From Vulcanimicrobiota bacterium (lineage in GTDB: Bacteria > Vulcanimicrobiota > Vulcanimicrobiia > Vulcanimicrobiales > Vulcanimicrobiaceae), in contig OY969579.1 in NCBI GenBank assembly GCA_963701255.1, forward strand, positions 2,669,702-2,733,701: a stretch of DNA of 64,000 nucleotides, in the 5' to 3' direction. The notes under the pieces were generated by a model, which did no database searches, had not been told where the DNA came from, and worked only from the letters and a program-made list of their open reading frames with translations. Made by a program: the position numbers and the translations under genes. Shown piece by piece: positions 31,133 to 48,514 of the stretch (position 1 is its first letter; each line of letters begins with the position of its first letter).

Positions 31133-31133
31133 C

Positions 31134-33212: not shown

Positions 33213-33236
33213 AGCCCGAAACGTCTAGGGGAATCT

Positions 33237-33677
33237 GTGTCCACTTCGGCTGACTTCAAATATCTCGAAACCAAGATCATGACGGCGTCGAAGGAAGAGC
33301 TTACCCTCATCACCTTTGACTTCTTGATCCTCTCCGCGACCAAGGCGCTCGACAAGCTGCACAACGCGCCGCGCGATATCCAGGGGATCCACGATGAATT
33401 GCGGCGCGCGCAGCGCGCGATCGCGGTCCTCATGGGATCGCTGAACTTCGAGATCGGAGGAGAGCTCGCGCTCAACCTCTTCCGCGTCTACGAGTTCTGG
33501 CATCGCCAACTGGTGCTCGCGAATCTGCAAAAGGATTCCGAGCGCGTCGAACGGCTGCTCCCGTTCTTCAAAGAGTACCGCTATACATGGGCCGAAGCGC
33601 AGCGCTGCTTCCGGGCCGAACAGGTAAGCTCGGGGCAATCCGCCACGGCGAGCGGTTCGTTCGTCGCCGTCGGCTGA
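33237..33677 (+). CDS. fliS: flagellin-specific chaperone FliS
   Basis: GTG start. Segments TASKEELTLITFDFLI, I..L...LNFE.GGELA.NLF.VYEF are FliS four-helix signatures. Confidence 0.88.
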   Translation: MSTSADFKYLETKIMTASKEELTLITFDFLILSATKALDKLHNAPRDIQGIHDELRRAQRAIAVLMGSLNFEIGGELALNLFRVYEFWHRQLVLANLQKDSERVERLLPFFKEYRYTWAEAQRCFRAEQVSSGQSATASGSFVAVG

Positions 33678-34060: not shown

Positions 34061-34831
34061 TTAGTCGACGATCACGTAATCGAGCACGGCTCGCTCGTGG
34101 CGCTCGTGCGCGCGCGGTCCGTTTTCGTCGAACGGCACGAGCGCGTAGCGCGGACCGGGCTGCGCGACCAACATCCGTTCGTGGGCGGTCTCGGCGGGCG
34201 ATTCCCAGCGCACGGGCTCGACGACGCCGCGGTCGCGGTCGAAGTGCCCGCACCGTACCCCCGCGTGCAGCGCGACGCCGAATCCGGCCCGCCGGATGCG
34301 CTCGCAGAAGAGATAGTCTTCGTTACAGACGCGAACGCGAGCGGCACCCTCTTCGATATAGATTTGGGTCGCGAAGTAGGGGCGAGCGAGCGCCCGCAGA
34401 ACTGAGGTCCGCAGCAGAACGCAGCCAAACCCGACGGCATCGACCGGAACGATGCGATCGGTGAAGCCGGGGACGCTTCCCCCCGTCGTGTCGGCGGAGG
34501 ACCAGCGGGACGCGGCCATCGGCCGGATCCCGTCGCGCGAGTAGTAGAGCGCGCCGACGACGGCGAGCGACGGATCGAGCACCAGGGCGTCGCAAAGCGT
34601 CGTGAGTGCGTCCGGCGCAAAGGTCATATCGTCGTCGATCATCGCCAGGAAATCTGCTTGCACCGCGAGCGCCCGGCGCACGGCGAGTTCGCGCTGGGCC
34701 GGGATGAAGTTTCCGCTGACGACGTAACGGTCGAAGTCGGTGACCTCGGGCGGAAGCGTCAGCTTCGCGAGCGCGCTCAAGAACGGCTGCGTCGGCCGGC
34801 CGCCGTTGGGGAGCGCGAGCAAGAGCTTCAA
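34061..34831 (-). CDS. GT2-like glycosyltransferase (256 aa)
   Basis: TTG start in TTGA overlap with the upstream gene. Segments FLAMIDDDMTF (DxD), GFGCVLLR and EDYLFCERIRRAGF are typical of GT-A family 2. Confidence 0.75.
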   Translation of the reverse strand: MKLLLALPNGGRPTQPFLSALAKLTLPPEVTDFDRYVVSGNFIPAQRELAVRRALAVQADFLAMIDDDMTFAPDALTTLCDALVLDPSLAVVGALYYSRDGIRPMAASRWSSADTTGGSVPGFTDRIVPVDAVGFGCVLLRTSVLRALARPYFATQIYIEEGAARVRVCNEDYLFCERIRRAGFGVALHAGVRCGHFDRDRGVVEPVRWESPAETAHERMLVAQPGPRYALVPFDENGPRAHERHERAVLDYVIVD

Positions 34832-36339
34832 CCGAGTGCTCCCTCGAGGGCGGCGAGCACGGCCTTGGCCGCCGTGTCGAGTTCGGGATCGCTCTCGCGA
34901 AAGAGCGACACACTGCGCGCCAGCTTCGCGCGCAAGAAGATGCGGCTGATCGCAGCACCCGCTTGCGCGGCGTACGACGCGAGGGCGGCGGCGAGCTGCC
35001 CGCGCGCCTCCGCATCCGCCAGCGCCGCATCGCCCGGGGCCAGCCCGACGAAGAACTGCGCCGCACGCAAGAACGGGTGCGCGGATTCGTTGGCGAGCGT
35101 CCGGCCGATGAAGGCGATCTCGGCGGGCCGGAAGGCGCGCACGAGCGTCACCGCGCCGGCCGGGGCCGGCGTCAACTCGAACCGTCCGCTGCGCTCGGGG
35201 ATCTCCGGGGGGAACGGCGGCAGCGCGGCCGCGACGTTTTCCGGGATGATGGTCTTGCCGAGCCGGGAGGTGATCAGGGCTTTGGAGAGCAGCCGCTCTT
35301 GGGCGGCCAGAAAGGCCCCGATCGCGGCGGCATCGCCCTGGGCGTCGAGCGGATCGCGGGTGGCCAGGGCGTTGAGGACGAGATAGTGGGCGATCATCCC
35401 CGAGCGGCGTTCGCCGGTGAACAGCGCAGCGAGCGAGCCGTGGCGCTTGCGGTCGAGCGTGACCTGCAAGACGAACCCGCCGTGCGCCGTGCCCACCGGG
35501 CCCCGCGGGGCCGGCTCGGGCTCAGGCTCGGCTTGCGGAGCCGGTTGGAGCGCCGCGCGGATGGGCGGCGCCGGGAGCGCGGTCGTGCGGGGCGGCGCCG
35601 GCGGCAGCGTCAGCGGCGGGGGTGGTGCCGGCGGCGGTGGCGCCGGTGCAGGCGGCAGCACCGGTTCGTAGTGCTCGGCCGCCTGCGCGAAGGCTGGACC
35701 GGTGCCGGGCACTTCAGCCGGCGGCTCGAGCGCTTCTTCCTCGGTGTCGAGTTCGTAGAACGGGCGCTCCGGCTGGGCGAAGGCTTCCAGCGAGCGTTTG
35801 GCGCCCCGGGTGAGGCGCAGCGCGCGCGGACCGGCGATCCCGGCCCCGGCGTCCGCCTGCAGATAGGGGGCCAGCGTGATATCGTCGAGCCCGAGGTCGA
35901 CCGCGAAGCGCAAGACGACCGTCCGCCGTTCGCCGGGTCCCAACGCGGCCAGCGGCACACCCGCCTCGAGCAGCGCTTCGGCCACCTCGTCGTCGCGCTC
36001 CGCGTCGTTGATGCGCAGCGAGCCGGACGCTAGGCGCAAGCCTCGTGGGAGCGGGAGGATCGCCCGGAGGCCCGCCACGGGCTCGGTGCCGTCGTTCATG
36101 ATCGCCAGGCTCACGGTGACGACGGCACCGGGAATCAGACCGCTGCGCGGTTGCGCATCGAGCGTCGCCGTGAGCAGCGGGCCGCGCTCAACCGGGGTCT
36201 CCTCGATCGGCGCACCATGCGGCAGGTCCACGCTCGCCTGGCGCTGCCAGCCGAACCGCGGCGCCGGGGCGCCGATGCGCACGCGCTGCAAGTCCACCAG
36301 GCGCATATCGGCGCTCCGCTCGAAACGGTCGTCGTTCAT
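34828..36339 (-). CDS. hypothetical protein: DUF11/CARDB-like Ig-fold N-domain, proline-rich linker, helical C-domain
   Basis: 503 aa with no signal peptide. VVTVSLAIMNDGTEPVAGLRAILPLPRGL..RRTVVLRF resembles a conserved-repeat Ig fold. The linker is PPAPAPPPPAPPPPLTLPPAPP. ATGA coupling to the ATPase gene. Confidence 0.6.
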   Translation of the reverse strand: MNDDRFERSADMRLVDLQRVRIGAPAPRFGWQRQASVDLPHGAPIEETPVERGPLLTATLDAQPRSGLIPGAVVTVSLAIMNDGTEPVAGLRAILPLPRGLRLASGSLRINDAERDDEVAEALLEAGVPLAALGPGERRTVVLRFAVDLGLDDITLAPYLQADAGAGIAGPRALRLTRGAKRSLEAFAQPERPFYELDTEEEALEPPAEVPGTGPAFAQAAEHYEPVLPPAPAPPPPAPPPPLTLPPAPPRTTALPAPPIRAALQPAPQAEPEPEPAPRGPVGTAHGGFVLQVTLDRKRHGSLAALFTGERRSGMIAHYLVLNALATRDPLDAQGDAAAIGAFLAAQERLLSKALITSRLGKTIIPENVAAALPPFPPEIPERSGRFELTPAPAGAVTLVRAFRPAEIAFIGRTLANESAHPFLRAAQFFVGLAPGDAALADAEARGQLAAALASYAAQAGAAISRIFLRAKLARSVSLFRESDPELDTAAKAVLAALEGALG

Positions 36340-37310
36340 ATGCGGCGGGTGAAGAAGCGGGCGAGCAGCGATGGTCGCGAACCGCTTTCCGCGCCGGGCT
36401 CCGGACGCTGCGGCACGGGTTGGGGAGCCGGCCGCGCAGCCGGCGCGGCACGCTGCGCCGGGGCCGTCAGAGCGGCGGCGGCGGCCGGGACCGCCAGGCC
36501 GCGCGCGCGGAGCGCCGCCACGACGTGATCGACGTTGACGATCTCCGCGCTGCGATCGGCCGCCTCGCCCATCGCGCCGCGCACGACGTTCGCCAGCCGG
36601 CGCGGCAGCCCGCCCCCCGCGGCGACCACGGCTTCGAGTGCGTCGGAGGTGAAGATGCGCGCCGCCGGCGGCTTGCCGGCTTGCTCCAGCCGGTACTCGA
36701 TGAGCGCGGCCGCCGCACCCGGATCGAGCCGTTCGAGGTGCAGAAAGCGATCGACGCGATCGGCGAGATTCTCGCGCGCCAGGATGCGCGCCTCGAGTTC
36801 GGGCTGTCCGAAGAGCACGAGGTTGAGCAGTTTGCGCTGCGGGATTTGGAAATTGAGCAAGAGCCGCAAGGTTTCAAGCCCGTCGTCGCTGAGGTTTTGC
36901 GCTTCATCGATGAGCAGGACCAGCGACTTTTCTTCGAGGACGGCCGTGTCGAAGAAGAAATTCTTGATCGCGTTCTTCAATGCGGCGCTCGAACGCGGCG
37001 GCAAGCCCAGGCCGAAGACGCGACCGATCGCCAGCAAGAACTCGACGTCACTTGCGAACGTCGGGTCGAGGATTTTCCCGATCACGACGTTTTCGTCGCG
37101 CAAGAGCGACCCTTCGATATAGCCGGAGAGCAACGTCTTCCCGGTCCCGGGTGAACCGATGACGACCGTCAAGCCGCGCGACTCGGCGATCCCGGAGAGT
37201 ATGACCAGGGCGTCGCGGCGCAGTGCCGGCAACTCACAGTAAAACTGCGGATCGGCCGTGTCGAGAAATGGATCGCGTTGAAGCCCGAAGTGCTGGTAGT
37301 ACCGGCGCAT
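36336..37310 (-). CDS. ExeA/GspA-like AAA ATPase (AAA_22 type)
   Basis: N-terminal YYQHFGL..DPF, Walker A GSPGTGKT, Walker B LLIDEAQNL, and LLLNFQ....LLNLVLFGQPEL, typical of the ExeA family. The C-terminal tail is Pro/Ala-rich with no PG-binding domain. Confidence 0.8.
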   Translation of the reverse strand: MRRYYQHFGLQRDPFLDTADPQFYCELPALRRDALVILSGIAESRGLTVVIGSPGTGKTLLSGYIEGSLLRDENVVIGKILDPTFASDVEFLLAIGRVFGLGLPPRSSAALKNAIKNFFFDTAVLEEKSLVLLIDEAQNLSDDGLETLRLLLNFQIPQRKLLNLVLFGQPELEARILARENLADRVDRFLHLERLDPGAAAALIEYRLEQAGKPPAARIFTSDALEAVVAAGGGLPRRLANVVRGAMGEAADRSAEIVNVDHVVAALRARGLAVPAAAAALTAPAQRAAPAARPAPQPVPQRPEPGAESGSRPSLLARFFTRRI

Positions 37311-37353: not shown

Positions 37354-39945
37354 GTGGATTATTCGATCGTCATCCCCGTTTTCAATCGAGCGGATTTGAC
37401 ACGTCAGTGCCTGGCAGCGCTGCTCCCGGCACTCGCGAACGCCGGAAACGGCGAGGTAATCGTCGTCGACAACGGTTCCGAACCCGACACGGCTGCCGTT
37501 TTGGCCGATTTCCCCTGGGTTCGCGTGATTCGAAACGACCGCAACCTCGGCTTCGCCGCAGCGTGCAACCAAGGGGCACGTGCGGCGAGCGCACGCATCG
37601 TGATCCACCTCAACAACGACACGGTCGCGCCGGGAGCATGGGTCGAATCGCTGCTCGCCCACTTCGCCGATCCCGGCGTCGGCGTCGCCGGCGCGAAGCT
37701 GCTTTTCGGGAACGGCACGATCCAGCACGCCGGCGTCGCCATCGGGGGTGCTCGTTTCGGACCCGAGGGGATCGGCCCGTTCCATATCCTCGCGCAGGCC
37801 CCGGGGGATGCTCCGGCAGCCAACCGGACGCGCGACTTCGCCGCGGTTACGGGCGCGTGTCTCGCGACGCCGCGCGCACTCTTCCTGGAACTGGGCGGCT
37901 TCGATGAATGCTACTGGAACGGCTACGAAGACGTGGACTACTGCTTCAAAGTCGGTGCGCGCGGCTTGCGCGTGGTCTACGAGCCGGCGGCGTGGTTGTA
38001 CCATCTCGAATCACAATCCGGGGTGCAGCGCAAGCGCCGGTTGATGCATAATCTGCGCGAACTCGGGGCCCGCTGGGGCGAGCGTATCCTGCCCGACACC
38101 AACCGACTCTGCGGCCTGACGGGTCTCGTGCTCCGGGAGCGTTCGGTGCGCGGCGTGGTCGCGTACGCCGCGCATCCGCTCCCGCCCGCAAGCGTGCTCG
38201 TACACGGACCCGCTCCGCCGGATGCCGCCGCCTTCGCCGCCCGCTTACGCGGCGGCTCGGTCGTTCCTGAGGCGATCGTGTGGGCGGCCGACGGTCCGGC
38301 CCCGGCGGGCTGCGAGCCGGCCGCCGATTGGTTGGGGGCGGCGCGTTCGCTCACCGAGATCCGTGCCGAGCGGTACGTCGTCTTCATCGACACGCGCAGC
38401 GTTCTGGAGGCCGAGTGGCTGGCGGGTCTGATCGACGGGGTCGAATTCGGCGACAACGTCGCGGCTGCGGCGATCGGCGAGCCAGGCCCGGTGGCGCCGT
38501 ATGCCTTGAACGCGCGCGCGACCATCGTCGCGCTGCGGCGCGTCCCGCAAGACATACGCATCGAAGCGGCCGCATCGTGCGATGATGCGCTCGCCGGTTT
38601 CACACAAGCGCTGGTCGCGCGCGGCCGCGCGCTGCGCTTGGACCCCCGCCCCGGCCGCGTCGAGGCGACCATCGCACCCGACGCAGCGCGCCTGGAAGTA
38701 CTCTCGATGCCGCTCGAGGGCGGCGCCACGCTCGCGTCGATCGTGATGCTGAGTTGGAACGCGCCCGAGTACACGGAGATCGCGATGCGCTCGATTCGGG
38801 CGAATACGCGGCCGGGTACCTACGAGGTCATCATCGTCGACAACGGCTCGGATGACGACACGATCGCGCGCCTCAAGAAGCTGACCGGCGTTCGCATCCT
38901 CTACAACCGGCGCAACTTGGGCTTCGCGCGCGGCTGCAACCAGGGGATCGCAGCGGCCCGCGGTTCGCACATCGTGCTGCTGAAGAACAACGTCTTCGTA
39001 ACGGACGGCTGGCTGGACCGCTTGCTCGAGGCGCAGCGCTTCAACCCCTGCGCCGGGGTCACGGCGCCGCGCTCGAACAACGTCGCGGGCTCTCAGCGCC
39101 TGGACTCTTCGCCCTACTCCAACGAAACCGAATTGGCCGCGTTCGCGCTGCGGCGCGCGCGTGATTGGCATCGGCGCAACTACCACACCGATCGCGCGAT
39201 CGGTTTCTGCCTGTGCATCGACCGGCGCGTGATCGACGAAATCGGCGGTATCGACGAGCGCTACGGCGTGGGCAATTTCGAGGACGATGATTTTTGCGTG
39301 CGCGTGCGGGCCGCGGGCTACGAGATCCTGGTTTGCGAAGACGTGCTGGTCCATCACTTCGGGAGCATGAGCTTCAAGGCGAACAATGTCGACCATCGCG
39401 ATCGGATGGAGCGCAACTGGGCCGTGTTCGCGCAGCGCTGGGATCTCCCGCGCGCATATCCCGTCAACGGCTACGATGCCACCCCGGCGATCGAGCGCGG
39501 CTTCGATCGCGCGCGGGATTACGTCGCATTGCCGGACGAGCGCGAAGGCGGCGCGACCCGTTTGGGGGTGAAAGGGTTAACCCTCGTCGCGATCGTCGAA
39601 CGGGAAGCGGACTGGACCGCGATCGGAGCGGTCGCGAACAACTACCTGCGCGCCCTGCGAGCCGGCGACAACGTCGTCTTGGCGATCGCCGCGCGCGGCG
39701 AACCGGACGCCGCGACGATCGCTGGGCGCCTGCGGAAGACGCTTGAGAAGTACGGCCTGGAGCCCGCCGCGGCGGCCGGCGTCATCGTCGAAGACGTCGC
39801 CGATCTGGGCGGCTGGCTCGCGCACTTCGGAACGCGGCGAGTTGCCGTGCGCGCGCACCCGGAACTGCGCGGCATGCGCGAACTCGCCGAGCGCAGTCCC
39901 AGCGCCCTTGCGCGACTCGTGCGGAGCGAACATGCGGGTTCGTGA
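37354..39945 (+). CDS. dual-domain GT2 glycosyltransferase (copy 1, 863 aa)
   Basis: GTG start. Two GT-A cores: YSIVIPVFNR...VVDNGS...NLGFAAACNQG...HLNNDT, and SIVMLSWNA...IVDNGSDDDT...NLGFARGCNQG...LLKNNVFV. The second core lacks the Asp seen in copy 2. Confidence 0.88.
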   Translation: MDYSIVIPVFNRADLTRQCLAALLPALANAGNGEVIVVDNGSEPDTAAVLADFPWVRVIRNDRNLGFAAACNQGARAASARIVIHLNNDTVAPGAWVESLLAHFADPGVGVAGAKLLFGNGTIQHAGVAIGGARFGPEGIGPFHILAQAPGDAPAANRTRDFAAVTGACLATPRALFLELGGFDECYWNGYEDVDYCFKVGARGLRVVYEPAAWLYHLESQSGVQRKRRLMHNLRELGARWGERILPDTNRLCGLTGLVLRERSVRGVVAYAAHPLPPASVLVHGPAPPDAAAFAARLRGGSVVPEAIVWAADGPAPAGCEPAADWLGAARSLTEIRAERYVVFIDTRSVLEAEWLAGLIDGVEFGDNVAAAAIGEPGPVAPYALNARATIVALRRVPQDIRIEAAASCDDALAGFTQALVARGRALRLDPRPGRVEATIAPDAARLEVLSMPLEGGATLASIVMLSWNAPEYTEIAMRSIRANTRPGTYEVIIVDNGSDDDTIARLKKLTGVRILYNRRNLGFARGCNQGIAAARGSHIVLLKNNVFVTDGWLDRLLEAQRFNPCAGVTAPRSNNVAGSQRLDSSPYSNETELAAFALRRARDWHRRNYHTDRAIGFCLCIDRRVIDEIGGIDERYGVGNFEDDDFCVRVRAAGYEILVCEDVLVHHFGSMSFKANNVDHRDRMERNWAVFAQRWDLPRAYPVNGYDATPAIERGFDRARDYVALPDEREGGATRLGVKGLTLVAIVEREADWTAIGAVANNYLRALRAGDNVVLAIAARGEPDAATIAGRLRKTLEKYGLEPAAAAGVIVEDVADLGGWLAHFGTRRVAVRAHPELRGMRELAERSPSALARLVRSEHAGS

Positions 39946-41923
39946 CGACTTCTCATGGCTGGGTCCGGCGCTCGGGGCCGGGCGATTCGCCCAACTGCGT
40001 GCCGCAGATCTGGCCGTTGCCCGGTTCGAACCCGTCTTCCGCGACAAGCGCGGCGTCGGCGTGCTCGATCTCACGTTTGCACACGCCGGCGAGGCGTTCG
40101 CGCTTTGTGCGCTGTTGGTCGATCTCGTCGCGCTTTGGACCCTCGAAGCACCGCCGCTCGTGTGGCCCGCGACGCTCGCCGCAGGGCTCGATCCCGATTT
40201 TGCCGAGGCCGTAGAAGCGCGCGTCTATCCGTGGTTGCGCACGCTCGTGCGGGGCGTCGCCTCGCCCGGCGAGCGTCTGCGCAGCTACGGCGACGAGGCG
40301 GCGTTCGAGCGGGCACGCGCGGCGGGCTGGGTCGGCGCTATCCCCTGCGGGGCCGCGATCGTCGCGATGGCGCCGTTCGCCTACGCGCGCCGCTTCGCGC
40401 GCGATGCGCAGGTTTCGATCGCGGCCCGGCACGGCGCGCTGGCCGCCGCGCTGCTGCGCGACCGCGCGCGCGCGGTGCGGCTCGTCGCCGGCGCCTCGGC
40501 GCCGGAGGTGGCGTGGTACGGCGTCGCCGACTTGCTCGCCCCGTCGGCCGCGGTCGCCGCGGCCGACGTAGCGATCGTCGACCGCGCAGCCGCGGGACTT
40601 GGGGCCGCGACGATCGTCGCACTCGACGACGTGCCCGACGGCGGCCGGACGATCGACGTGCCGCAACCGGTGCCGCTCGACAACGGCTTTACCTTCGACG
40701 CCGCCGACGCGCCGGTGGTGCGCACGTTCGGCGTGTGGGCGCGACCGGCCGCGTCGCGTGCGCCCGCGCCGGCCGTCCCCGTCGCGCGCCGCGCGCAAGC
40801 GGATGGTCTGATCGGATTCGTGCTGCGTTCCGACGCGGGCTATGCGCCCGACGCGGACACGGACGAACTGCGCGTCCTGCGCGAGCTACTCGAAATCGAA
40901 GGACTGCGCAGCTTCGTGACGACCGATCCGCGCGATCCGCAACTCGGGCAAGCCGATCTGGTGCACGTCTTTGCCGCCTACGACGACCGGCATCTCGGGG
41001 CGGCGGCCGAGAGCGCGCTGCGCGGGCGCAAGCCGCTGGTCATCAGCCTCGAACCCCTCGCCGCCTACGCGAACTGGCAAGAAGACGCCTTGCTCATCGC
41101 CGTACAGATCGGGCTCGACCGCGTCGAGCGAGCGTTCTTCTTCGAGAACTATGCCGAGCGCCGCATCATCGTGAGGGGAACGCCGTTGCTCCCCGATGCC
41201 GCGCAGGTCCAGCAGCGGCGTGAGGAATTTCTCGTGAGCGCGCGCGCGGCGAGCGCCGTCATCACGGCCGCGTGTGACGAACCGGCGCTGCTCGGCCGCG
41301 AATTCGGCCTGCCGCCGGACGGCTTGATCGCGGGCGCGATCGCGCTGGGCGGCGAGCCGGACGGCGGCGACGTGGTGAGCGCGCTCGTGCCGCCGGGTCC
41401 GTTCGTGCTCATGCACGCGCCGCTCGTGCGGCGTTCGCATCTCTTGCTGGTGCTCACCGCACTCGCCCCGCTGGACATCGACGTCGTCGTCGCCGGCGAA
41501 CCGGCCGATGTCGACACCGCGATCTCCCTGCGCGCGGGCGCGGGGCGGGAGGTTCTCTTCCTGACCGAGCCGGCGCCGGCGGTGCTTGCCGGGCTCTATG
41601 CGCGCGCCGCCGTTTACGTGGAGCCCTCGCTGCGCTCGCGCTCTCCGGCACGGCTCGCGCGCGCGGTTCGTGCCGGTGCGTTACCGCTGGTTGCGCGCGA
41701 TGGACCGCTCGCTCGTTTGGTCCCGCCGGAACTCACCTTTTCGATCAGCGACCCGGCCGAGATCGCGGCGGCGATCGGGGGTGCGCTCGCTCGCCCCGAT
41801 CGGGTCGAACGCGCCCGGATGCTTGCCGCGGCGCTCGGCGGACTCAGCGATCCCGGACGCGCGCGCGACGCAGCGCTTGCCGCCTATGCGCGTGCGGCGG
41901 CTCGATCCGCGCCGGCATCCTGA
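39932..41923 (+). CDS. hypothetical protein with GT-B (GT4-like) C-terminal half (copy 1, 663 aa)
   Basis: Met64 of track ORF 39743, overlapping the upstream stop by 14 nt. The C-terminal PFVLMHAP..RRSHLL...VVAGE...LYARAAVYVEPS...RLARAVRAGALPLVA resembles a GT-B nucleotide-sugar binding half. Confidence 0.65.
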   Translation: MRVRDDFSWLGPALGAGRFAQLRAADLAVARFEPVFRDKRGVGVLDLTFAHAGEAFALCALLVDLVALWTLEAPPLVWPATLAAGLDPDFAEAVEARVYPWLRTLVRGVASPGERLRSYGDEAAFERARAAGWVGAIPCGAAIVAMAPFAYARRFARDAQVSIAARHGALAAALLRDRARAVRLVAGASAPEVAWYGVADLLAPSAAVAAADVAIVDRAAAGLGAATIVALDDVPDGGRTIDVPQPVPLDNGFTFDAADAPVVRTFGVWARPAASRAPAPAVPVARRAQADGLIGFVLRSDAGYAPDADTDELRVLRELLEIEGLRSFVTTDPRDPQLGQADLVHVFAAYDDRHLGAAAESALRGRKPLVISLEPLAAYANWQEDALLIAVQIGLDRVERAFFFENYAERRIIVRGTPLLPDAAQVQQRREEFLVSARAASAVITAACDEPALLGREFGLPPDGLIAGAIALGGEPDGGDVVSALVPPGPFVLMHAPLVRRSHLLLVLTALAPLDIDVVVAGEPADVDTAISLRAGAGREVLFLTEPAPAVLAGLYARAAVYVEPSLRSRSPARLARAVRAGALPLVARDGPLARLVPPELTFSISDPAEIAAAIGGALARPDRVERARMLAAALGGLSDPGRARDAALAAYARAAARSAPAS

Positions 41924-41965
41924 CGAACACAAAATAATCTGACCCGATCGCCCGAAGCATAGTCT

Positions 41966-44614
41966 ATGGAGTACTCGATCATCATCCCGGTGTTCAACCG
42001 GGAGGATCTCACCCGGAATTGCCTCGCGGCACTGTTGCCGACCGTCGCCGAGGCGGGTACGGGTGAAGTCATCGTGATCGACAACGGTTCGGCGGCGGCG
42101 ACGGCGGACGTCCTGGCCGCGTTTCCCTGGGTCCGGGTCATCCGCAACGAGCAGAACCTCGGCTTCGCGGCGGCCTGCAACCAGGGCGCACGGGCGGCCT
42201 CGGGCCGCTTCCTCGTGCACCTCAACAACGACACGATCCCGCTCGCCGGCTGGCTCGCGCGGCTGCTCGCGGTCGCGCGCGAGCCGGGTGTCGGCGTGAC
42301 CGGCGCGCGCCTGCTCTACGCGAACAACCGCATCCAGCACGCGGGCGTGCTGCTCTTCCCCGCCCGCTTCGGTCCCGAGGGCGCGGGCCCGTTCCATTTC
42401 TTGATGGGCCGCCCGGCGGACACGCCCGCGGCCCTCATTCGAACGGATTACGAAGCCGTGACCGGCGCGTGTCTGGTGACGCCGCGCGAACTCTACCTCG
42501 AACTGGGCGGCTTCGACGAATCGTTTTGGAACGGCTACGAAGACGTCGACTACTGTTTTTCCGTGCGCGCCCGCGGGCTGCGCGTGGTCTACGAACCGGC
42601 CGCCGTGCTCTATCATCTCGAGTCGCAGTCGGGCGTTCAGCGCAAGCGGCGTTTGGTGCACAACGTTCGCGAACTCGCCGCGCGCTGGGGCACGAAGATC
42701 CAGCCCGACCACAATCGCCTCTGCGGCCGCACCGGATACATCCGGCGCGAAGCGTTTCGCGGTTTCAATCGCACGTTCGTCCCGCTTTCGAACCCCGCCG
42801 TCACGGTGCTCGTTCACGGCGACGCGCCGGACGACGCGGCCGCGTTCGCGGCGCGCCTGCGTGAGAGCTCACCGGCCCCCGAGACGATCGTCTGGGCCGC
42901 GGGCGGACCGGCACCGGCCGGTACCCAGGCCGCCGATGGTTCGCCGGTCGCGCTGGCGCGCGCGCTGACCGAGTCGAGAGCCGATCGCTACGTCGCGTTC
43001 ATCGATACGCGCACGGTGCTCGAACCACAGTGGCTGGGCGAGTTGATCGATTCGGCCGAGTTCTCGCAAGACGTTTGCGCGGCGACCGTCGTACCGCCCG
43101 AAGAACGCGCGGCAACGACCACGCCGCTGGGCGCCGATGCGCGCTGCACGCTGGTCGCGACGCGGCAGTGGCCGCAGGACGTTCGCATCGATCCGGCCGC
43201 GACCTCGCTCGATGCGGCGCTGGTCGATTGGACCACCCGTGCGGTCGCGCTGGGACGGGCGGTGCGCGCCGTGCCGCGCCGGATCGCCGACATCGGGCCG
43301 CCGCTCCCCGGCGAACACGAAATCTTGCGCCGGGCCGATCCCGTGCGGCTCGAAGAACTCTGCCGCACGCCGTCTTCGCTCGGCCCGGTGTTCGCCTCGA
43401 TCGTCATGCTGAGTTGGAACGCGGCGCAGTATACGAAACTCGCGGTCGAGTCGATTCGCGCCTCGGCGAGCGCTGTGCCCTACGAGATCATCATCGTCGA
43501 CAACGGCTCCGACGAGCCGACGCGCGCGATGCTCGCCGAACTGACGGACGTACGGGTCATCTACAACGACCGTAATCTCGGCTTCGCGCGCGGCTGCAAT
43601 CAAGGCATCGCAGCCGCCGGTGGGACGCACGTCGTCCTGCTCAACAACGACATCTTGGTCAACGACGGCTGGCTCGACCGGCTGATCGACGTGCACCGCC
43701 GCGATCCACTCGTCGGCGTCTCCGCGCCGCGCAGCAACAGCGTCGCCGGCGATCAACAGATCTCCGACTTCTCGTATACCGACCGCGAGGGCATGCTCGC
43801 CTACGCGGCTCGCCGCGCGAAGACCTGGCGCGGCATCCACTACCGGACGGACCGGGCGATCGGGTTCTGTTTGTGCATCGCGCGCCGCGTGATCGACGAA
43901 GTCGGCGGGATCGACGAGCGCTACGGCGCCGGCAACTTCGAGGACGACGACTTCTCGATCCGGGTGCGGGCGGCCGGATACGAGATCGCCGTCTGCGAGG
44001 ACGTGTTCATCCATCACTTCGGCAGCGCGACCTTCAAGGCCAACAATCTCGACTATGCCGCATCGATGCAGAAAAACTGGGCGATCTTCGCGGCGCGCTG
44101 GGGATTTCCGCAAGCGTATCCGGTGAACGGGTATCAAGCCGAGCCCGCCATCCGGCGCGGGTTCGTGCGTGCGCAGCACTATGTCGCGTTGCCCGTCACG
44201 GCGCAGCCGGTGCAAGCGGCGCCGCCACCCGGCAAGACGTACGGTGTCGCACTGCTCGCGATCGTGGACGGTGAAGCGGCCTGGGGCCGGATCGGTCCGA
44301 TCGTGACGAACTACGCCCGCGCGCTCGCGCTCGGGGACGACACGGTGCTCGCGCTGGCTGCACTCGAACCGATGGATGCCAACACGCTGGCGGCGCGGGT
44401 CGAACGCGCGCTGAGGAAAGCCGGCATCGCGCCTCAGGATGCGCCGGACATCGAGATCGCCGACGTGTCGGACATTGCCGATTGGCGCTCGGGCGTCTGT
44501 GCCGGGCGCACGATCGCGGTCGAGCGGGACCTGCGTTTGATCGGTTGCGACCTGCTCGACGATCGCAGCCCCAGCGGCCTGCGGCGCCTGCTGCGTACGC
44601 CGGCGGCGGTGTAA
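41966..44614 (+). CDS. dual-domain GT2 glycosyltransferase (copy 2, 882 aa)
   Basis: Collinear paralog of 37354..39945 (by eye, well over half of N-terminal residues are identical). Both GT-A cores retain NND (HLNNDT, LLNNDILV). Confidence 0.88.
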   Translation: MEYSIIIPVFNREDLTRNCLAALLPTVAEAGTGEVIVIDNGSAAATADVLAAFPWVRVIRNEQNLGFAAACNQGARAASGRFLVHLNNDTIPLAGWLARLLAVAREPGVGVTGARLLYANNRIQHAGVLLFPARFGPEGAGPFHFLMGRPADTPAALIRTDYEAVTGACLVTPRELYLELGGFDESFWNGYEDVDYCFSVRARGLRVVYEPAAVLYHLESQSGVQRKRRLVHNVRELAARWGTKIQPDHNRLCGRTGYIRREAFRGFNRTFVPLSNPAVTVLVHGDAPDDAAAFAARLRESSPAPETIVWAAGGPAPAGTQAADGSPVALARALTESRADRYVAFIDTRTVLEPQWLGELIDSAEFSQDVCAATVVPPEERAATTTPLGADARCTLVATRQWPQDVRIDPAATSLDAALVDWTTRAVALGRAVRAVPRRIADIGPPLPGEHEILRRADPVRLEELCRTPSSLGPVFASIVMLSWNAAQYTKLAVESIRASASAVPYEIIIVDNGSDEPTRAMLAELTDVRVIYNDRNLGFARGCNQGIAAAGGTHVVLLNNDILVNDGWLDRLIDVHRRDPLVGVSAPRSNSVAGDQQISDFSYTDREGMLAYAARRAKTWRGIHYRTDRAIGFCLCIARRVIDEVGGIDERYGAGNFEDDDFSIRVRAAGYEIAVCEDVFIHHFGSATFKANNLDYAASMQKNWAIFAARWGFPQAYPVNGYQAEPAIRRGFVRAQHYVALPVTAQPVQAAPPPGKTYGVALLAIVDGEAAWGRIGPIVTNYARALALGDDTVLALAALEPMDANTLAARVERALRKAGIAPQDAPDIEIADVSDIADWRSGVCAGRTIAVERDLRLIGCDLLDDRSPSGLRRLLRTPAAV

Positions 44615-46611
44615 TGAAGACGACCCGGTACTTTCCCGAGTTCGGGCTGTGGCGCGATCCAGCCCTGCTGCGCGCGCTGGTGACGCCGGCGACGCTGCTC
44701 AGCGCCCGCTACGAACCGGTCTTGCGCGATCTGATCGGATACGGTTCCCTCGATTTGACGTTCGGCGCCGGCGAGGCCCTGTGCACGGTCGCAAACGTGT
44801 TGATCGATCCGGTGCCGCTCTCGGTGCGCACCTCCCAATCGCTGGTGTGGCCGGCGTTCGTCGTCGCCATCATCGAGGAAGACATCCTCGAGGCGATCGA
44901 GGCGACGGTCTTGCCGTGGCTGCGCATGCTCGCACGCGGCCGCGCGCTTGCGAGCGAGGAGATTCGCCACTACGGCGACCCGGCGCCGTTCGAGCACGCG
45001 CGCGCGCTCGGACTCTTCGGAGCGGCACCGTTCGCCCACAGCCTGCCGCGGCTGGCTCCGCTGGTCTACGCGGCGCGCTTCGCCGCGGGCGCGCGTGTCT
45101 ACATCGCCGCGCACGACACGGCGACGGCCGTCGCGGTGATCCGTCCGCACGCTGCCGCGATCGCTGAACGGCCGCAAACGGGCGCCGACGCGGCGTTCGC
45201 GCGGCGCTGGTTCGCGCTGCCGGAGCCCGCCGGCGACGCCGGGCCGTACGATCTGGTCATCGCCGAGCAGGCGGAGGATGTTCTCCCGGGTGCACGCACC
45301 ACGATCGTGCTGCACGGCGGCGAGTCGCTGCCGGGCGCGCGCACGGTCCTGGTCCCCGAGCCGGTTCCGCTCGACGTGCTCTTCACTTTTGATGCGGCCG
45401 ATGCGCCGGCCGTCGCGTCGTTCGCGGTCATCGCACATCCGCTAGCGGCCGTGCGTCCCCGGCGCGTCGTGGACGCGCCGGTAGCGGGCGGCGGTTCGGC
45501 CGGTTCGATCGTCTTTGCGTTGCGCGACGACGCGCGCTTCGCACCCGACGCGGACACCGATGCGATCGACGCCTTCGCCGAATGGCTGCGTGCCGAAGGT
45601 CTCCGGGTCGCAGTCGCGGCCGGGCCGGCGGATCCGGCGCTCGCGGGCGCCGATCTCGTACACATCTTCGGCGCGTTCGGCGACCCTCACGTGCGAGCAT
45701 ACGCGGATTCGGCGGCGGCCGCCGCCGTGCCGTTCGTGCTTTCGTGCGAACCGTTCTCGGAGCTGACGATCTGGATGGAAGACACGCTGCCGACCGCGAT
45801 TCGGGCACCGCTCGACGACCTGGGACTCGACTACTACTTGAGCAAATTCGAGCAGCGGGCGCTGATCATCGACGGTCTGGTCCCCGAGGCATCGCCCGAA
45901 CAGCTCGCCGCGATCGACCAGCGCTTTCTCCCCGCGGCAGTTGCTGCCGCCGGGATCATCGTCTCGAGCAACACCGATCGCGCGCGCGTTCGCGAACGGT
46001 TTCCCGCGTTGCCCGAGGCGGCGTTCACCGTCGCTGCGCTGCCGGCCGGGGCCGAGCCGGCCGAGGACGATATCGCGGCGATCGTTCCCGATCGCCCGTT
46101 CGTGCTCGTCCATGCGCCGATCATCCGGCGCAGCAACCTGTTGTTCGCGCTCTGGCCGCTGGCGCGCGCGGGGATCTTCACGGTCATCGCGGGCGAGGTC
46201 GTCGACGTCAACCTGCTCACGCAATTGCGCCGCATCGGCGGCGAGTCCACGCTCATCCTAACCGATCCCGCCCCCGGCGTCGTCGCCGCGCTCTACCGGC
46301 GCGCGGCCGTGTGGCTCGACGCGAGCGCGCGTCCGGCCGGCACGGCACGGCTGATGCGCGCCGCGCAGTGCGGCGCGCTGCCGGTCGTCGCCCGCACGTC
46401 GCCGTTGGCCGAGCTGACCGCACACGATGCGCCCGTCTTCGAGTTCCCGCTCTTCGACTCGCTCGCCGGCGCCGTGCGCAGCGCGTTCGCGTGTTCCGAT
46501 GCGCCGGCCCGCGCGCGACGGATCGCCGAACGCCAGGCAGCGGCGTACGAACCCGGCGCGGCGTTTCGCGCCGTGGTCGCGCTGTATGCGGGTGTGGGAG
46601 CGCGTGCCTGA
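44614..46611 (+). CDS. hypothetical protein with GT-B-like C-terminal half (copy 2, 665 aa)
   Basis: Met45 of track ORF 44482, 1-nt overlap (TAATG). It is a collinear but more diverged paralog of 39932..41923 (shared blocks FTFDAADAP, FAPDADTD, ADLVHIFGA, PFVLVHAP..RRSNLL). Confidence 0.65.
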   Translation: MKTTRYFPEFGLWRDPALLRALVTPATLLSARYEPVLRDLIGYGSLDLTFGAGEALCTVANVLIDPVPLSVRTSQSLVWPAFVVAIIEEDILEAIEATVLPWLRMLARGRALASEEIRHYGDPAPFEHARALGLFGAAPFAHSLPRLAPLVYAARFAAGARVYIAAHDTATAVAVIRPHAAAIAERPQTGADAAFARRWFALPEPAGDAGPYDLVIAEQAEDVLPGARTTIVLHGGESLPGARTVLVPEPVPLDVLFTFDAADAPAVASFAVIAHPLAAVRPRRVVDAPVAGGGSAGSIVFALRDDARFAPDADTDAIDAFAEWLRAEGLRVAVAAGPADPALAGADLVHIFGAFGDPHVRAYADSAAAAAVPFVLSCEPFSELTIWMEDTLPTAIRAPLDDLGLDYYLSKFEQRALIIDGLVPEASPEQLAAIDQRFLPAAVAAAGIIVSSNTDRARVRERFPALPEAAFTVAALPAGAEPAEDDIAAIVPDRPFVLVHAPIIRRSNLLFALWPLARAGIFTVIAGEVVDVNLLTQLRRIGGESTLILTDPAPGVVAALYRRAAVWLDASARPAGTARLMRAAQCGALPVVARTSPLAELTAHDAPVFEFPLFDSLAGAVRSAFACSDAPARARRIAERQAAAYEPGAAFRAVVALYAGVGARA

Positions 46612-46613
46612 TC

Positions 46614-47369
46614 GTGGCTCTGCAAACACTCACCCTGATCGTGATCGTCGGTCCGTCCGCGGACGGGTTGCGCGTGACCCTGGACGGGATCGCGGCGACG
46701 GTCACGCAGGTTCCGTATCAAGTACTCGTGGCCGGCAACGGGACGGCCCTCGACCAGTCGGTGTTGGCGGGCCTGCCTTTCACGGCGACGATCGTGCAAA
46801 GTCCGGCGCAGGTTGCGCCGGGGGCCTTCCTCAACGCCGTATTGGCGCATGCGAAGGGCGACGTCGTCAGCTTCTTGCCGGCCGGCGTTCGGCCCGAGCC
46901 CTGGTGGACGGTGGGGGTCTTCGAGTTGCTCGAACGTGCGGACGTCGGTGCGGTCGCGCCGCGCATCGTCGATGAATCGGGCGAGCAAATCGTCGGCACC
47001 GGGATCGTCGCGTTTGACGGCGTGCTCGTTCCGCGGCTGGCCGGATTGGCGCGCGATGCGATGGGAGCGCTCGAGCCGAGCGCGCTCTTTTTCGCGCCGT
47101 CGACGGGGTTATCGGTCAAGCGCGAAGCGTTCGACCGGATCGGCGTCTTCGACGCAGGCTTCGAGCGGACGCTCTTCGATCTCGACTGGACGTTGCGGGC
47201 GCGCACGAGCGCGCTGGCGATCGTCTACCGGCCGGACGTGACGATGCGCAGCGACCGGCCGATCGGCATCGGACCCGCCGCGCACACGACCGCGGACGCG
47301 CGGCGCTTTCTCGACCGTTGGCAAGCGGCCTTCGGCACGGCACTCGATGCGCAGCGGTTCGTGCCGTGA
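46614..47369 (+). CDS. GT2-like protein with degenerate DxD region (251 aa)
   Basis: GTG 46614 (residue 345 of track ORF 45582), 2 nt after the upstream stop. It has a GT-A-like layout (LIVIVGPS..., GDVVSFLPAGV where LDxD is expected, GLSVKREAFDRIGVFD). Confidence 0.6.
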   Translation: MALQTLTLIVIVGPSADGLRVTLDGIAATVTQVPYQVLVAGNGTALDQSVLAGLPFTATIVQSPAQVAPGAFLNAVLAHAKGDVVSFLPAGVRPEPWWTVGVFELLERADVGAVAPRIVDESGEQIVGTGIVAFDGVLVPRLAGLARDAMGALEPSALFFAPSTGLSVKREAFDRIGVFDAGFERTLFDLDWTLRARTSALAIVYRPDVTMRSDRPIGIGPAAHTTADARRFLDRWQAAFGTALDAQRFVP

Positions 47370-48514
47370 AGATCGCCGTCTTCGACGATTTCGTCCCGCA
47401 CCTGGATCTGGGCGCAGGCTTGCCGCGCGCGAACGCGCTGGTCAACGAACTCGCGCAGCGCTGCGAACGCGTCGCGTACTTTGCGATGCATGGACCGGCC
47501 GGTGAAACGACGCCCGAGCAGTGGTACCGGGATATCGACCGGCGCGTCGAGATTTCGATCCCGCCGCTGCCCTACGATTGGACGCCGACCTTCGAGGGCT
47601 TGCGGGCCGGCGGCTTCGACGTGCTCTGGATCAGCCGTCCACCGAATATGCGCACGCTGCTCGCGAGCCTGATCGCGCGGCCCGATCTGCGCGCGGCGTT
47701 CACGATCGTCTACGATGCCGAAGCCCTCTACGCTCCGCGCAGCGTTCAACTACGCCGGCTCGAAGGCCGGCCCGTGCCGCCGGAGATCGAACGCGGCTGG
47801 CTCGAAGAAGAGTTCTTCCTGGCGCGCCAGGCGGATCTGGTCGTTTCGGTGAGTCCCGGTGAGGCGCACGCGCTGCGTGAGGGGACCCAGCGCGAGGCCT
47901 TCGTGCTGGGCTTCACCTCGCTCCCCGATCCGACACCCGCGAGCTTCGCCCAGCGCCGTGACTTCGGCTTCGTCGGTCCGCTGCGCCGGGTGTCGCCGAA
48001 CGAAGATTCGCTCCTGTGGTACGGCGCGAACGTGCTGCACGAGGTTGCCGCGCGCACGCAAGCGCGGCTGCGCGTCGCCGGTGCGCTCGATTCGCGCTTG
48101 TTTGCGATCTACGCGGGTCCGCAGGTCGAGCTGCTGGGAAAACTCGACGATCTGCGGCCGTTCTTCAACGCGATGCGCGTGTTCATCGCGCCGACGCGTT
48201 TCGCCGCCGGCTTGCCGCAAAAGCTCATCGACGCGGCGAGCGCCGGCGTGCCGATCGTCGCGACCTCGTTGCTTGCCGAGGAACTCGGCTGGACGCACCG
48301 CACCGAACTGCTCGTGGCCGACGATGCCGCCGCGTTCGCGGACGCGTGCGTGGCACTCTACACGGACGCGGACCTCTGGCAGCAGCTCCGCGAGACGGCC
48401 TGCCGCCGGATCGCGCAAGCCTACGGAACGGGTTGCTTCGCGCGGGAACTCGACGTGGTCCTGGGCGCGCTCATGGCTCGTCCGCCGCGCTGTACGGAAC
48501 CGGCTCGAACGTAA
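47366..48514 (+). CDS. GT4-family (GT-B) glycosyltransferase
   Basis: GTG 47366 in GTGA overlap. The C-terminal FVGPL...N.DSLLW......VELLGK.DDLRPFF...RVFIAPTRFAAGLPQKLIDAASAGVPIVAT is the GT1/GT4 donor-binding motif. Confidence 0.8.
   Translation: MKIAVFDDFVPHLDLGAGLPRANALVNELAQRCERVAYFAMHGPAGETTPEQWYRDIDRRVEISIPPLPYDWTPTFEGLRAGGFDVLWISRPPNMRTLLASLIARPDLRAAFTIVYDAEALYAPRSVQLRRLEGRPVPPEIERGWLEEEFFLARQADLVVSVSPGEAHALREGTQREAFVLGFTSLPDPTPASFAQRRDFGFVGPLRRVSPNEDSLLWYGANVLHEVAARTQARLRVAGALDSRLFAIYAGPQVELLGKLDDLRPFFNAMRVFIAPTRFAAGLPQKLIDAASAGVPIVATSLLAEELGWTHRTELLVADDAAAFADACVALYTDADLWQQLRETACRRIAQAYGTGCFARELDVVLGALMARPPRCTEPART

What the first reader, a model, noticed from the sequence alone, without database searches (positions are those of the whole stretch)
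37354..46611. Tandem duplication of a two-gene GT module with asymmetric divergence
The module is gene A (GT2-linker-GT2-tail, about 870 aa) plus gene B (about 665 aa, unknown N-half and GT-B-like C-half). It occurs twice head-to-tail (37354-41923 and 41966-46611). The A copies are strongly conserved along their whole length, while the B copies share only scattered blocks. In A copy 1 the second GT-A core reads LLKNNVFV where copy 2 has LLNNDILV, so the Asp of the metal/donor-binding motif is lost. This suggests sub- or neo-functionalisation, for example one module adding a different sugar or acting as a scaffold.
Basis: seen in the sequence. Interest (0 to 1): 0.62.

Follow-up and report, generated by a model that had tools for sequence, protein, structure and literature searches.

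The report
Two old sugar-transferase modules beside flagellar genes
Two diverged copies of a two-gene sugar-transferase module really do sit head to tail in a flagellin-glycosylation island of an uncultured Eremiobacterota bacterium, but the "lost catalytic aspartate" that made the finding interesting is a systematic error in this genome assembly.

Summary
The tandem A-B/A-B arrangement is real. A1/A2 are 58% identical and B1/B2 42% identical, both collinear over their full length. Independent metagenome contigs span every junction.

The main claim fails. At window 38989 the assembly reads AAC (Asn), but eight of eight independent peat, bog, moss and soil metagenome assemblies read GAC (Asp). 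The differences from the window shared by all runs laid (four in the first four runs) all lie in the context C-A-ACGTC (true GACGTC). CAACGTC is also strongly strand-asymmetric across the genome. This points to a systematic G>A assembly error, and the Asp is intact.

The weaker conservation of B than A is the normal rate difference between the two families, not an effect of duplication.

The copies are not recent. Each type has closer orthologues in other organisms (A1 70%, A2 76%). Equally related relatives carry only type 1 or only type 2 next to the same neighbouring ATPase gene.

In 11 other genera a single A-B pair lies inside the filament operon (fliC, GmaR-like GT2-TPR, A, B, fliD). The module therefore most likely extends the O-glycan on flagellin.

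B is a family with no Pfam or NCBIfam match: an N-domain of unknown fold plus a GT-B fold that lacks the EX7E motif.

The parts
37354..39945 (+). A1: 863-aa protein with two GT2 (GT-A) domains, a middle domain and a tail; type-1 lineage
   Evidence: Pfam PF00535 twice. 58% identical to A2. Nearest orthologues are P0024/P0028 at 70%.
38983..38991 (+). Codons K544-N545-N546 of A1, the family's NND metal/donor motif. Base 38989 is an assembly error (true G, giving Asp546). K544 is a real polymorphism.
   Evidence: 8 of 8 metagenome assemblies read G at 38989; 1 of 8 reads C at 38985. LLNND is invariant in 114 of 114 homologues.
39932..41923 (+). B1: 663-aa partner protein (N-domain without database match plus GT-B fold); start overlaps the A1 end by 14 nt
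   Evidence: 42% identical to B2. 62-63% identical to the B of L044/L045. Tree.
41924..41965 (.). 42-nt spacer between module 1 and module 2
   Evidence: Sequence. Spanned by independent contigs X1 40491-42277, X2 41682-42290 and X3 40615-42055.
41966..44614 (+). A2: 882-aa two-GT2 protein; type-2 lineage with canonical LLNND
   Evidence: Nearest orthologue is P0006 at 76%.
44614..46611 (+). B2: 665-aa partner protein; start overlaps the A2 stop by one base (TAATG)
   Evidence: AlphaFold model pLDDT 88, pTM 0.89. Its C-terminal part (about residues 295-665 by the model's secondary structure) matches GT-B enzymes PglA, MshA, BshA and PimA, E 1e-11. No Pfam or NCBIfam hit.
46614..47369 (+). Small GT2-like protein following B2 in the same operon
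   Evidence: Sub-threshold NCBIfam hits to MftF-like and rhamnosyltransferase families. Homologue follows B in L042, L049 and L050.
47318..48514 (+). GT-B glycosyltransferase (Glyco_trans_1_4); start codon uncertain
   Evidence: Pfam E 2e-20.
27229..28509 (+). Flagellin (fliC), 22% Ser+Thr; the presumed acceptor
   Evidence: Flagellin_N and Flagellin_C. S+T fraction.
28587..30719 (+). GmaR-like GT2-TPR protein; presumed initiating flagellin O-glycosyltransferase
   Evidence: GT domain matches PDB GmaR 22ao, E 2.7e-34. GT2 plus TPR Pfam hits.
30749..33677 (+). flaG, fliD, fliS. In other genera A-B sits between the GT2-TPR gene and fliD.
   Evidence: Pfam. Synteny in 11 genera.
34061..37310 (-). 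Divergent trio (small GT2-like, 503-aa protein without family match, AAA22 ATPase). Its ATPase end is the fixed left border of the A-B site. Base 37132 is another CAACGTC error (Leu60 should be Ser).

Best explanation
The region holds two anciently diverged copies (type 1 = A1-B1, type 2 = A2-B2) of a translationally coupled two-gene glycosyltransferase module. The module belongs to the flagellin O-glycosylation island of an Eremiobacterota bacterium from peat, bog and moss habitats.

Proposed mechanism (inferred):
- The GmaR-like GT2-TPR enzyme puts the first sugar on Ser/Thr of flagellin in the cytoplasm.
- Each A protein then adds up to two further sugars, using its two intact GT-A domains.
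- B works with A, either as a third, atypical transferase or as an acceptor-binding partner.
- Two non-identical modules give a longer or more varied glycan than the single module of most relatives.

Proposed history (inferred):
- The single ancestral module lay between the GT2-TPR gene and fliD.
- In one lineage it was copied to the far side of the divergent ATPase trio, and the original copy was lost.
- It then duplicated in tandem, at or before the time the window lineage split from its nearest sampled relatives.
- This genome keeps both copies. Relatives kept only type 1 or only type 2.

The apparent loss of the catalytic Asp in A1 is not biology. It is one of roughly 750 estimated G>A assembly errors at CGACGTC in this genome. 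All four GT-A domains carry the family's full motif set.
For: Shown:
- Full-length paralogy and intact frames.
- The junctions are confirmed by independent assemblies.
- 38989 = G in 8 of 8 runs. All shared differences lie in one heptamer context. Genome-wide strand asymmetry z = 12-13. The corrected residues match the orthologues, while a control CAACGTC site at 39079 that the runs confirm as A matches Asn in the orthologues.
- DNGS, NND, ED(D)D and HxxGS motifs are kept in both domains of both A proteins.
- Synteny flgK-flgL-fliC-GT2TPR-A-B-fliD-fliS with a single A-B occurs in 11 other genera. In a 401-genome phylum sample A is found in 87 genomes, all of one family.
- Relocated single modules: L043, and G036, whose A-B is followed by an epimerase and whose contig begins at A so that upstream is unseen. 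A likely intermediate is G191, with a truncated A at the old site plus A-B at the new one.
- Type-1-only relatives are L045, L049 and L050. L047 has a type-2 module directly beside the ATPase gene with no type 1 between (its contig ends inside B). All are about equally related to the window: ATPase N-terminus 81-83% identical.
- Orthologue identities of A1 (69%) and A2 (76%) are in the range of the flanking proteins (72-84%). This fits vertical descent of both types.
- The A and B trees are congruent.
- Stop/start overlap of A and B is seen in every locus whose gene coordinates were read: the window, L042, L043, L044, L045, L046 and L047.
- The GT2-TPR protein matches GmaR at E 2.7e-34.
- No transmembrane-like segment in A; in B the only hydrophobic peak is a strand of the modelled GT-B C-lobe.
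- NDP-sugar synthesis and methyltransferase genes lie next door.

Precedent: in C. difficile type B flagellin, GT1 adds GlcNAc and the single protein GT2 adds two rhamnoses (PMC5207246).
Against: - No glycan, flagellin mass or enzyme activity has been measured. The acceptor, the donors and the order of action are all inferred from gene order.
- The trees do not resolve whether types 1 and 2 are sisters. For A, the AU test does not reject monophyly (p = 0.45). For B, it is borderline rejected (p = 0.048), and B1 groups weakly (89/85) with the single-copy L043-type B. That would push the split deeper and require more losses, or lateral exchange.
- B lacks both glutamates of the GT4 EX7E motif, yet it has many conserved polar residues. 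Its catalytic status is open.
- The raw reads of the window's own assembly were not available. A private real variant cannot be excluded formally.
Confidence: 0.62

Rival explanations
1. Lateral cassette gain. Types 1 and 2 are diverged versions of the same single module that evolved in different Eremiobacterota lineages. The window lineage captured a second version by recombination into the variable slot between B1 and the small GT2 gene.
For: - The slot between B and the next gene is variable. L049/L050 hold two unrelated minus-strand ORFs exactly where the window has A2-B2.
- The B tree places B1 nearer the single-copy L043-type B than B2, and monophyly of type 1 + type 2 is borderline rejected (p = 0.048).
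- Only 1 of 87 A-carrying genomes has the tandem form.
Against: - A2 is 76% identical to the A of L047, whose ATPase gene is as close to the window as those of the type-1 relatives (81-83%). Both types therefore look vertically inherited since that split.
- No mobile-element genes, repeats or composition shift mark the slot.
- The A tree does not reject type 1 + type 2 as one clade (p = 0.45).
Confidence: 0.25
2. One reading: a lineage-specific tandem duplication followed by catalytic death of the second GT-A domain of copy 1, which now acts as a scaffold or changed-specificity subunit.
For: - The window's letters read LLKNNVFV, where 114 homologues have NND.
- K544 is real in most populations.
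- Type 1 has the longer stem branches.
Against: - Asp546 is present in 8 of 8 independent assemblies. The A at 38989 has the signature of a systematic error.
- The rest of domain 2 is conserved (64% identity to A2, dN/dS about 0.35).
- The copies are not each other's closest relatives.
Confidence: 0.03
3. A-B does not act on flagellin. It acts on another acceptor, such as a lipid-linked or cell-surface polysaccharide or an S-layer protein, and is merely co-located with flagellar genes.
For: - The GT2 domains hit polysaccharide-type families below threshold (EpsD, rhamnosyltransferase, chondroitin synthase).
- In this genome the modules lie outside the filament operon.
- G385 has A-like genes in a non-flagellar context.
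Against: - In 11 genera A-B lies between the flagellin-specific GT2-TPR gene and fliD, inside the filament operon.
- No membrane segment and no flippase, polymerase or initiating phosphotransferase gene were found among the neighbouring ORFs scanned.
Confidence: 0.08

Closest known systems
Clostridioides difficile type B flagellin glycosylation locus (GT1, GT2, GT3; PMC5207246)
   Same: The genes lie directly after fliC. One initiating transferase acts first. A multi-activity GT2-family protein then adds two further sugars. The locus content varies between lineages.
   Different: No detectable orthology was established here. The C. difficile system has no B-type partner protein and no tandem module pair. 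Its glycan is known, whereas here nothing has been measured.
GmaR, the Listeria monocytogenes flagellin O-GlcNAc transferase (GT2 domain plus TPR; PDB 22ao)
   Same: The neighbouring GT2-TPR gene (28587-30719) matches the GmaR GT domain at E 2.7e-34 and has the same GT2-then-TPR order.
   Different: GmaR is the likely counterpart of the initiating enzyme, not of A or B. A matches GmaR only at the generic GT2 level (E 9e-5).
Two-GT-A-domain enzymes such as chondroitin polymerase K4CP (PDB 2z86)
   Same: One polypeptide carries two GT-A domains, each with its own donor-binding motif. There is a weak sequence match at E 9e-7.
   Different: K4CP polymerises a free polysaccharide. A has an extra conserved middle domain and a tail, and it is always paired with B.
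GtfA-GtfB (Gtf1-Gtf2) O-GlcNAc transferase complex of streptococcal serine-rich adhesins (PDB 5e9t)
   Same: A protein-glycosylating enzyme is paired with a GT-B-fold partner that lacks canonical catalytic residues. The B profile weakly hits Gtf2 (E 0.065).
   Different: The hit is not significant. In that system the catalytic partner is also GT-B, whereas here it is GT-A. B keeps many conserved polar residues and may be an enzyme.
GT4-type GT-B glycosyltransferases (PglA, MshA, BshA, PimA)
   Same: The C-terminal part of B (about residues 295-665) has this fold (Foldseek E 1e-11) and a GGSxG loop at the equivalent first strand.
   Different: Sequence identity is 10-16%. Pfam GT-B models match only below threshold. 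Both EX7E glutamates are replaced (G/P/S at position 574; Arg at 582 in 78 of 110 members). B has an extra 290-aa N-domain with no significant structural match.

Membership tests
Glycosyltransferase family 2 (GT-A fold), for both domains of A1 and A2 | Match to Pfam PF00535 above the gathering score in each domain | tested here: met
   164 and 180 bits with two stretches each, against a cut-off of 23.3.
Glycosyltransferase family 2 (GT-A fold), for both domains of A1 and A2 | Nucleotide-binding DNGS Asp, DxD-type Asp (NND in this family) and ED(D)D acidic motif all present | tested here: met
   All are present in domain 1 of both proteins and in domain 2 of A2. In A1 domain 2 the NND Asp reads Asn in the window but Asp in 8 of 8 independent assemblies.
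Recent tandem duplicate pair | The two copies are each other's closest relatives | tested here: not met
   A1 is closest to P0024/P0028 (70%). A2 is closest to P0006 (76%). B1 is closest to the B of L045 (63%). B2 is closest to P0126 (50%). Each type forms its own supported clade.
Flagellin glycosylation island | Glycosyltransferase genes embedded in or adjoining the flagellin/filament operon, conserved across relatives | tested here: met
   fliC-GT2TPR-A-B-fliD occurs in 11 genera. In the window the modules adjoin the same operon beyond the ATPase trio.
Flagellin glycosylation island | Flagellin actually carries a glycan that depends on these genes | not testable with these tools
   The lineage is uncultured and no proteomic data were examined.
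GT4-type GT-B glycosyltransferase, for B | GT-B two-Rossmann fold | tested here: met
   The AlphaFold model (pLDDT 88) gives Foldseek probability 1.00 and E 1e-11 to PglA, MshA and BshA.
GT4-type GT-B glycosyltransferase, for B | EX7E motif in the C-terminal lobe, and a Pfam GT-B model above threshold | tested here: not met
   Among 110 family members the two Glu positions are G/P/S and Arg (the placement of the motif rests on my knowledge of GT4). Pfam hits are only at E 0.003-0.02, below the cut-offs.
GtfB/Gtf2-like non-catalytic GT-B partner, for B | Significant sequence or profile similarity to Gtf2 | tested here: inconclusive
   Profile versus PDB gives E 0.065 over 100 residues.
GmaR-like flagellin O-glycosyltransferase, for the neighbouring GT2-TPR gene | GT2 domain homologous to GmaR, followed by TPR repeats | tested here: met
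   E 2.7e-34 to PDB 22ao over residues 40-238. Multiple TPR Pfam hits.

The most novel reading that the evidence does not exclude
A and B form a previously undescribed heteromeric flagellin-glycan machine. A two-GT-A-domain enzyme is translationally coupled to a GT-B-fold protein that has a fold-unassigned N-domain and a non-EX7E active site (conserved GGSxG, DADTD, His350, His500, Arg579/582). Stacking two non-identical machines in one operon is how this lineage builds a longer hetero-oligosaccharide on its flagellin. The real, polymorphic N544K change beside the metal-binding Asp of A1 may tune donor or metal use.
Probability: 0.25. Interest if true: 0.5.

Novelty: new variant of a known kind. 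Interest (0 to 1): 0.3.

Why it matters
For the scan, the main lesson is technical. This single-contig genome carries an estimated 750 or so strand-specific G>A errors at CGACGTC. Any 'lost Asp', 'lost Gly' or similar call that falls on a CAACGTC site in this genome needs checking. Another note on this window already builds on the false NNV change.

Biologically, the locus documents a flagellin glycosylation system in the almost uncultured phylum Eremiobacterota. It has a GmaR-like initiator and an uncharacterised A-B elongation module. The module's copy number, position and type vary between close relatives. This is the same kind of surface-glycan diversification seen in the flagellin islands of Pseudomonas, Campylobacter and C. 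difficile. The B family (about 160 clusters at 50% identity) has no database model and would be a reasonable target for structural or biochemical work. None of this is surprising enough to rank high.

Tried and rejected
- dN/dS of the two modules (Nei-Gojobori): dS is about 1 and is probably compressed by the GC3 bias. It only shows purifying selection (omega 0.2-0.6), not a date.
- DNA-level comparison: 68.7% identity across A only, with B barely detectable. There are no flanking repeats or other signs of a recent event.
- The search for related loci with the full B alignment failed because no stretch was conserved enough. The N-domain alignment gave only 5 loci.
- Fold search of the B N-domain alone: only weak resemblance to Rossmann-type methyltransferases (E >= 3e-3, TM about 0.3). 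This was rejected as an assignment.
- G384's two A copies turned out to be two whole flagellar loci, most likely a mixed bin rather than a duplication.
- Modelling A1 domain 2 to look for a compensating acidic residue was dropped, because the Asp is not lost.
- Restriction-site avoidance was considered as a real cause of the CAACGTC sites. It was rejected because the change is always the same base on the same strand. 1591 GACGTC sites remain in the genome. Run X4 differs from the window at these four sites only over 10.6 kb.
- A literature search for flagella or glycosylation in Eremiobacterota found nothing relevant.
Full report
**What is at the coordinates.** The window has 60-72% G+C. Between 37354 and 46611 lie four + strand genes:
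- A1, 37354-39945, 863 aa
- B1, 39932-41923, 663 aa; its ATG lies 14 nt inside the end of A1
- A2, 41966-44614, 882 aa
- B2, 44614-46611, 665 aa; TAATG overlap with A2

.

A1 and A2 align end to end at 58% identity. B1 and B2 align end to end at 42% identity, E 1e-118. The paralogy is therefore collinear over the full length for both genes, not limited to generic motifs. Each A has two Pfam GT2 domains. B has no Pfam or NCBIfam match. The 3.33-Mb single-contig genome has no other copy of either gene.

**The 'lost Asp' is an assembly error.** In an alignment of 115 full-length A homologues, the second-domain motif LLNND is invariant except in A1, which reads LLKNN. I laid Logan contigs of public metagenomes on the region.
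- In the first four runs (peat, bog, moss and soil, from four studies), every contig over 38989 reads G, not A. This turns AAC (Asn546) into GAC (Asp).
- Four further runs agree, giving 8 of 8.
- Over 10.6 kb the only differences shared by all four runs are 37132, 38455, 38989 and 39670. Each is window-A versus G, and each lies in the identical context C-A-ACGTC, so the true sequence contains GACGTC. The three of these inside 38300-39800 recur in the four further runs.
- Run X4 differs from the window at these four sites and nowhere else.
- The three sites in A1 all change Asn to Asp, which is the residue in A2 and in both nearest orthologues. The site in the ATPase gene changes Leu60 to Ser, the residue in a homologue.
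- A fifth CAACGTC site (39079), which the metagenomes confirm as A, has Asn in the orthologues.
- Genome-wide, CAACGT and AACGTC are the two most strand-asymmetric hexamers (z = 13 and 12). CAACGTC occurs 1300 times against 551 for its reverse complement.

This is the signature of a systematic, strand-specific G>A consensus error at CGACGTC. A methylated motif in a long-read assembly is the likely cause, though I could not test that. Asp546 is intact. The Asn-to-Lys change two residues earlier (K544) is real in seven of eight populations and is Asn in the eighth.

**The tandem arrangement is real.** Independent contigs span:
- the ATPase gene into A1 (X4, 36900-40344)
- B1 into A2 (X1 40491-42277, X2 41682-42290, X3 40615-42055)
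- A2 into B2 (X1 42256-45443, X4 41882-45130)
- B2 into the next gene (X3 45037-47500)

.

**The A-versus-B asymmetry is ordinary.** Across 18 orthologous A/B pairs from other loci, B is always far less conserved than A. The regression is B = 1.28 x A - 29, with a residual sd of 2.7. At A = 58% it predicts B = 45%, and the paralogue pair shows 42%. Nei-Gojobori estimates give dS of about 1 for both genes, with omega 0.2-0.6, which indicates purifying selection throughout.

A different asymmetry does exist, between the two modules. The type-1 clade has longer stems than type 2 in both trees (A 0.37 versus 0.16, B 0.61 versus 0.23). Type 1 has also replaced 7 of 217 family-conserved columns of A, against 3 for type 2. 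Four of the seven lie in the middle domain (T373A, D386N, C389A, H400D).

**Context.** Upstream lie flgK, flgL, flagellin, a GT2-TPR protein, flaG, fliD, fliS and a FlgN-like gene. A divergent trio follows, ending in an AAA22 ATPase gene whose start faces A1. The GT domain of the GT2-TPR protein matches PDB GmaR at E 2.7e-34. From my own knowledge, GmaR is the Listeria flagellin O-GlcNAc transferase. Downstream of B2 come:
- a small GT2-like gene
- a GT-B gene
- an 829-aa GT2 gene on the opposite strand
- dehydratase/epimerase genes
- a sugar-modification operon with a split transketolase, methyltransferases and a cytidylyltransferase-kinase

.

Homologue names place the organism in Eremiobacterota, among Velthaea/Baltobacteraceae-type lineages.

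**Relatives.** In 11 other genera of the same family a single A-B pair lies inside the filament operon, in the order flgK-flgL-fliC-GT2TPR-A-B-fliD-fliS. In a 401-genome sample of the phylum, A occurs in 87 genomes, all in this one family. Only this genome has two full tandem copies.

In a sub-lineage the module sits where it does here, beyond the ATPase gene:
- L043 and G036 have a single copy followed by sugar-synthesis genes (dTDP-sugar and methyltransferase genes in L043, an epimerase in G036). The G036 contig begins at A, so its upstream side is unseen.
- G191 has a truncated one-domain A at the old site plus A-B at the new site, which looks like an intermediate.

Among the closest relatives (flanking proteins 72-85% identical):
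- L045, L049 and L050 carry ATPase | type-1 A-B. In L049 and L050 the same downstream genes as the window follow, but two unrelated minus-strand ORFs occupy the place of A2-B2.
- L047 carries ATPase | type-2 A-B, with no type 1 in between. Its A is 76% identical to A2 and its B is 58% identical to B2 over the 139 residues available.
- L042 has type-2 B followed by the same downstream genes as the window.
- The ATPase N-terminus is 81-83% identical to the window in all of these.

**Trees.**
- A1 groups with P0024/P0028 (support 100/100). A2 groups with P0006 and L042 (99/97). The relation between the two clades and the remaining relocated-type sequences is an unresolved polytomy.
- B gives the same clades, with B1 weakly (89/85) nearer the L043-type B.
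- The AU test does not reject type 1 + type 2 as one clade for A (p = 0.45). It is borderline for B (p = 0.048).

The split is therefore clearly older than the divergence of this organism from its nearest sampled relatives. Both types show orthologue identities like those of the flanking genes. I therefore favour an ancestral tandem duplication with reciprocal loss in relatives. Lateral cassette gain is the main rival.

**What B is.** An AlphaFold model of B2 (pLDDT 88, pTM 0.89) shows a GT-B fold in its C-terminal part (about residues 295-665). It matches PglA, MshA, BshA and PimA at E 1e-11 with 10-16% identity. The 290-residue N-domain modelled alone (pLDDT 74.5) has no significant structural match.

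A profile search of 1.84 billion representatives finds 161 clusters at E <= 1e-30, mostly full-length proteins of about 650-670 aa. In 110 aligned members, the conserved residues are:
- N-lobe: G293-G294-S295-x-G297, R304, D306, D312-A-D314-T-D316, E328-G329, D347 and H350
- C-lobe: F496, H500, R506, N508, Y561, D569, G576, R579, R582 and G587

The two positions that correspond to the GT4 EX7E glutamates are G/P/S and Arg (the motif correspondence is my inference). A profile search against PDB sequences gives only a marginal hit to the non-catalytic Gtf2/GtfB (E 0.065). B is therefore either an atypical enzyme or a binding partner, and this remains open.

**Mechanism (inferred).** Flagellin (22% Ser+Thr) would be primed in the cytoplasm by the GmaR-like enzyme. 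The A-B module would then extend the glycan. The two intact GT-A domains of A could add two sugars, as the single GT2 protein of C. difficile type B does (PMC5207246). Translational coupling of A and B in every locus whose gene coordinates were read suggests a complex. Two non-identical modules would lengthen or diversify the glycan. The genome has three flagellin genes, so substrate partitioning is also possible but untested.

**Verdict.** The feature that drove the interest score is an artefact. What remains is a real variant of a known kind of system, the flagellin glycosylation island. It contains an uncharacterised A-B module family and shows clear cassette-level variation among close relatives.

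Noticed in passing
window 37132, 38455, 38989, 39670; whole genome G000: Systematic, strand-specific G>A error at CGACGTC. CAACGTC occurs 1300 times against 551 for its reverse complement, which gives an estimate of roughly 750 wrong bases genome-wide. In coding regions they cause false Asp-to-Asn (GAC to AAC) and similar changes. Any residue-level oddity in this genome that falls on CAACGTC should be distrusted.
   Followed up: yes
That supporting point is void. Its own observation was not rechecked here.
   Followed up: partly
L054 (G191:C11:90000-109999), 14542-16281 and 3602-7704: One relative has a truncated, one-GT2-domain A without B at the ancestral site between GT2-TPR and fliD. It also has a full A-B beyond the ATPase trio. 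This looks like an intermediate in the relocation of the module.
   Followed up: partly
L050 6374-8343 and L049 about 11425-13523: In the closest type-1 relatives the slot filled by A2-B2 in the window holds two minus-strand ORFs of about 330 aa. One has a weak GT4 N-domain hit and the other has no family hit. The slot between B and the small GT2 gene is a variable cassette site.
   Followed up: partly
window 38110-38720 (A1 residues about 253-455) and the same part of A2: The so-called linker between the two GT2 domains has family-conserved Thr, Asp, Cys and His residues. They read T373, D386, C389 and H400 in A1 numbering and are conserved in >= 90% of 110 homologues. It is probably a functional domain. 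Type-1 proteins have replaced all four.
   Followed up: no
window 38983-38985: The Asn-to-Lys change (K544) at the first position of the NND motif of A1 domain 2 is a real within-species polymorphism: Lys in 7 sampled populations and Asn in 1. The position is Asn in 114 of 114 homologues.
   Followed up: partly
window 45490-46611 (B2 residues 293-665) and all B homologues: The B family has a strongly conserved acidic DADTD motif just after the GGSxG loop of the GT-B N-lobe. It also has conserved His350, His500, Arg579 and Arg582 in place of the EX7E glutamates. This may be an unusual active site.
   Followed up: partly
L053 (G385:C1:1806000-1825999): Two A-like genes without the tail (40-43% identity) lie 6 kb apart among other GT genes. 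No flagellar genes lie within the 20 kb fetched around them. The two-GT2 architecture is therefore not strictly tied to flagellar loci.
   Followed up: no
L058 and L057 (G384): This genome bin contains two complete, diverged copies of the whole flagellar filament locus on different contigs. It is probably a mixture of two strains rather than a duplication.
   Followed up: partly
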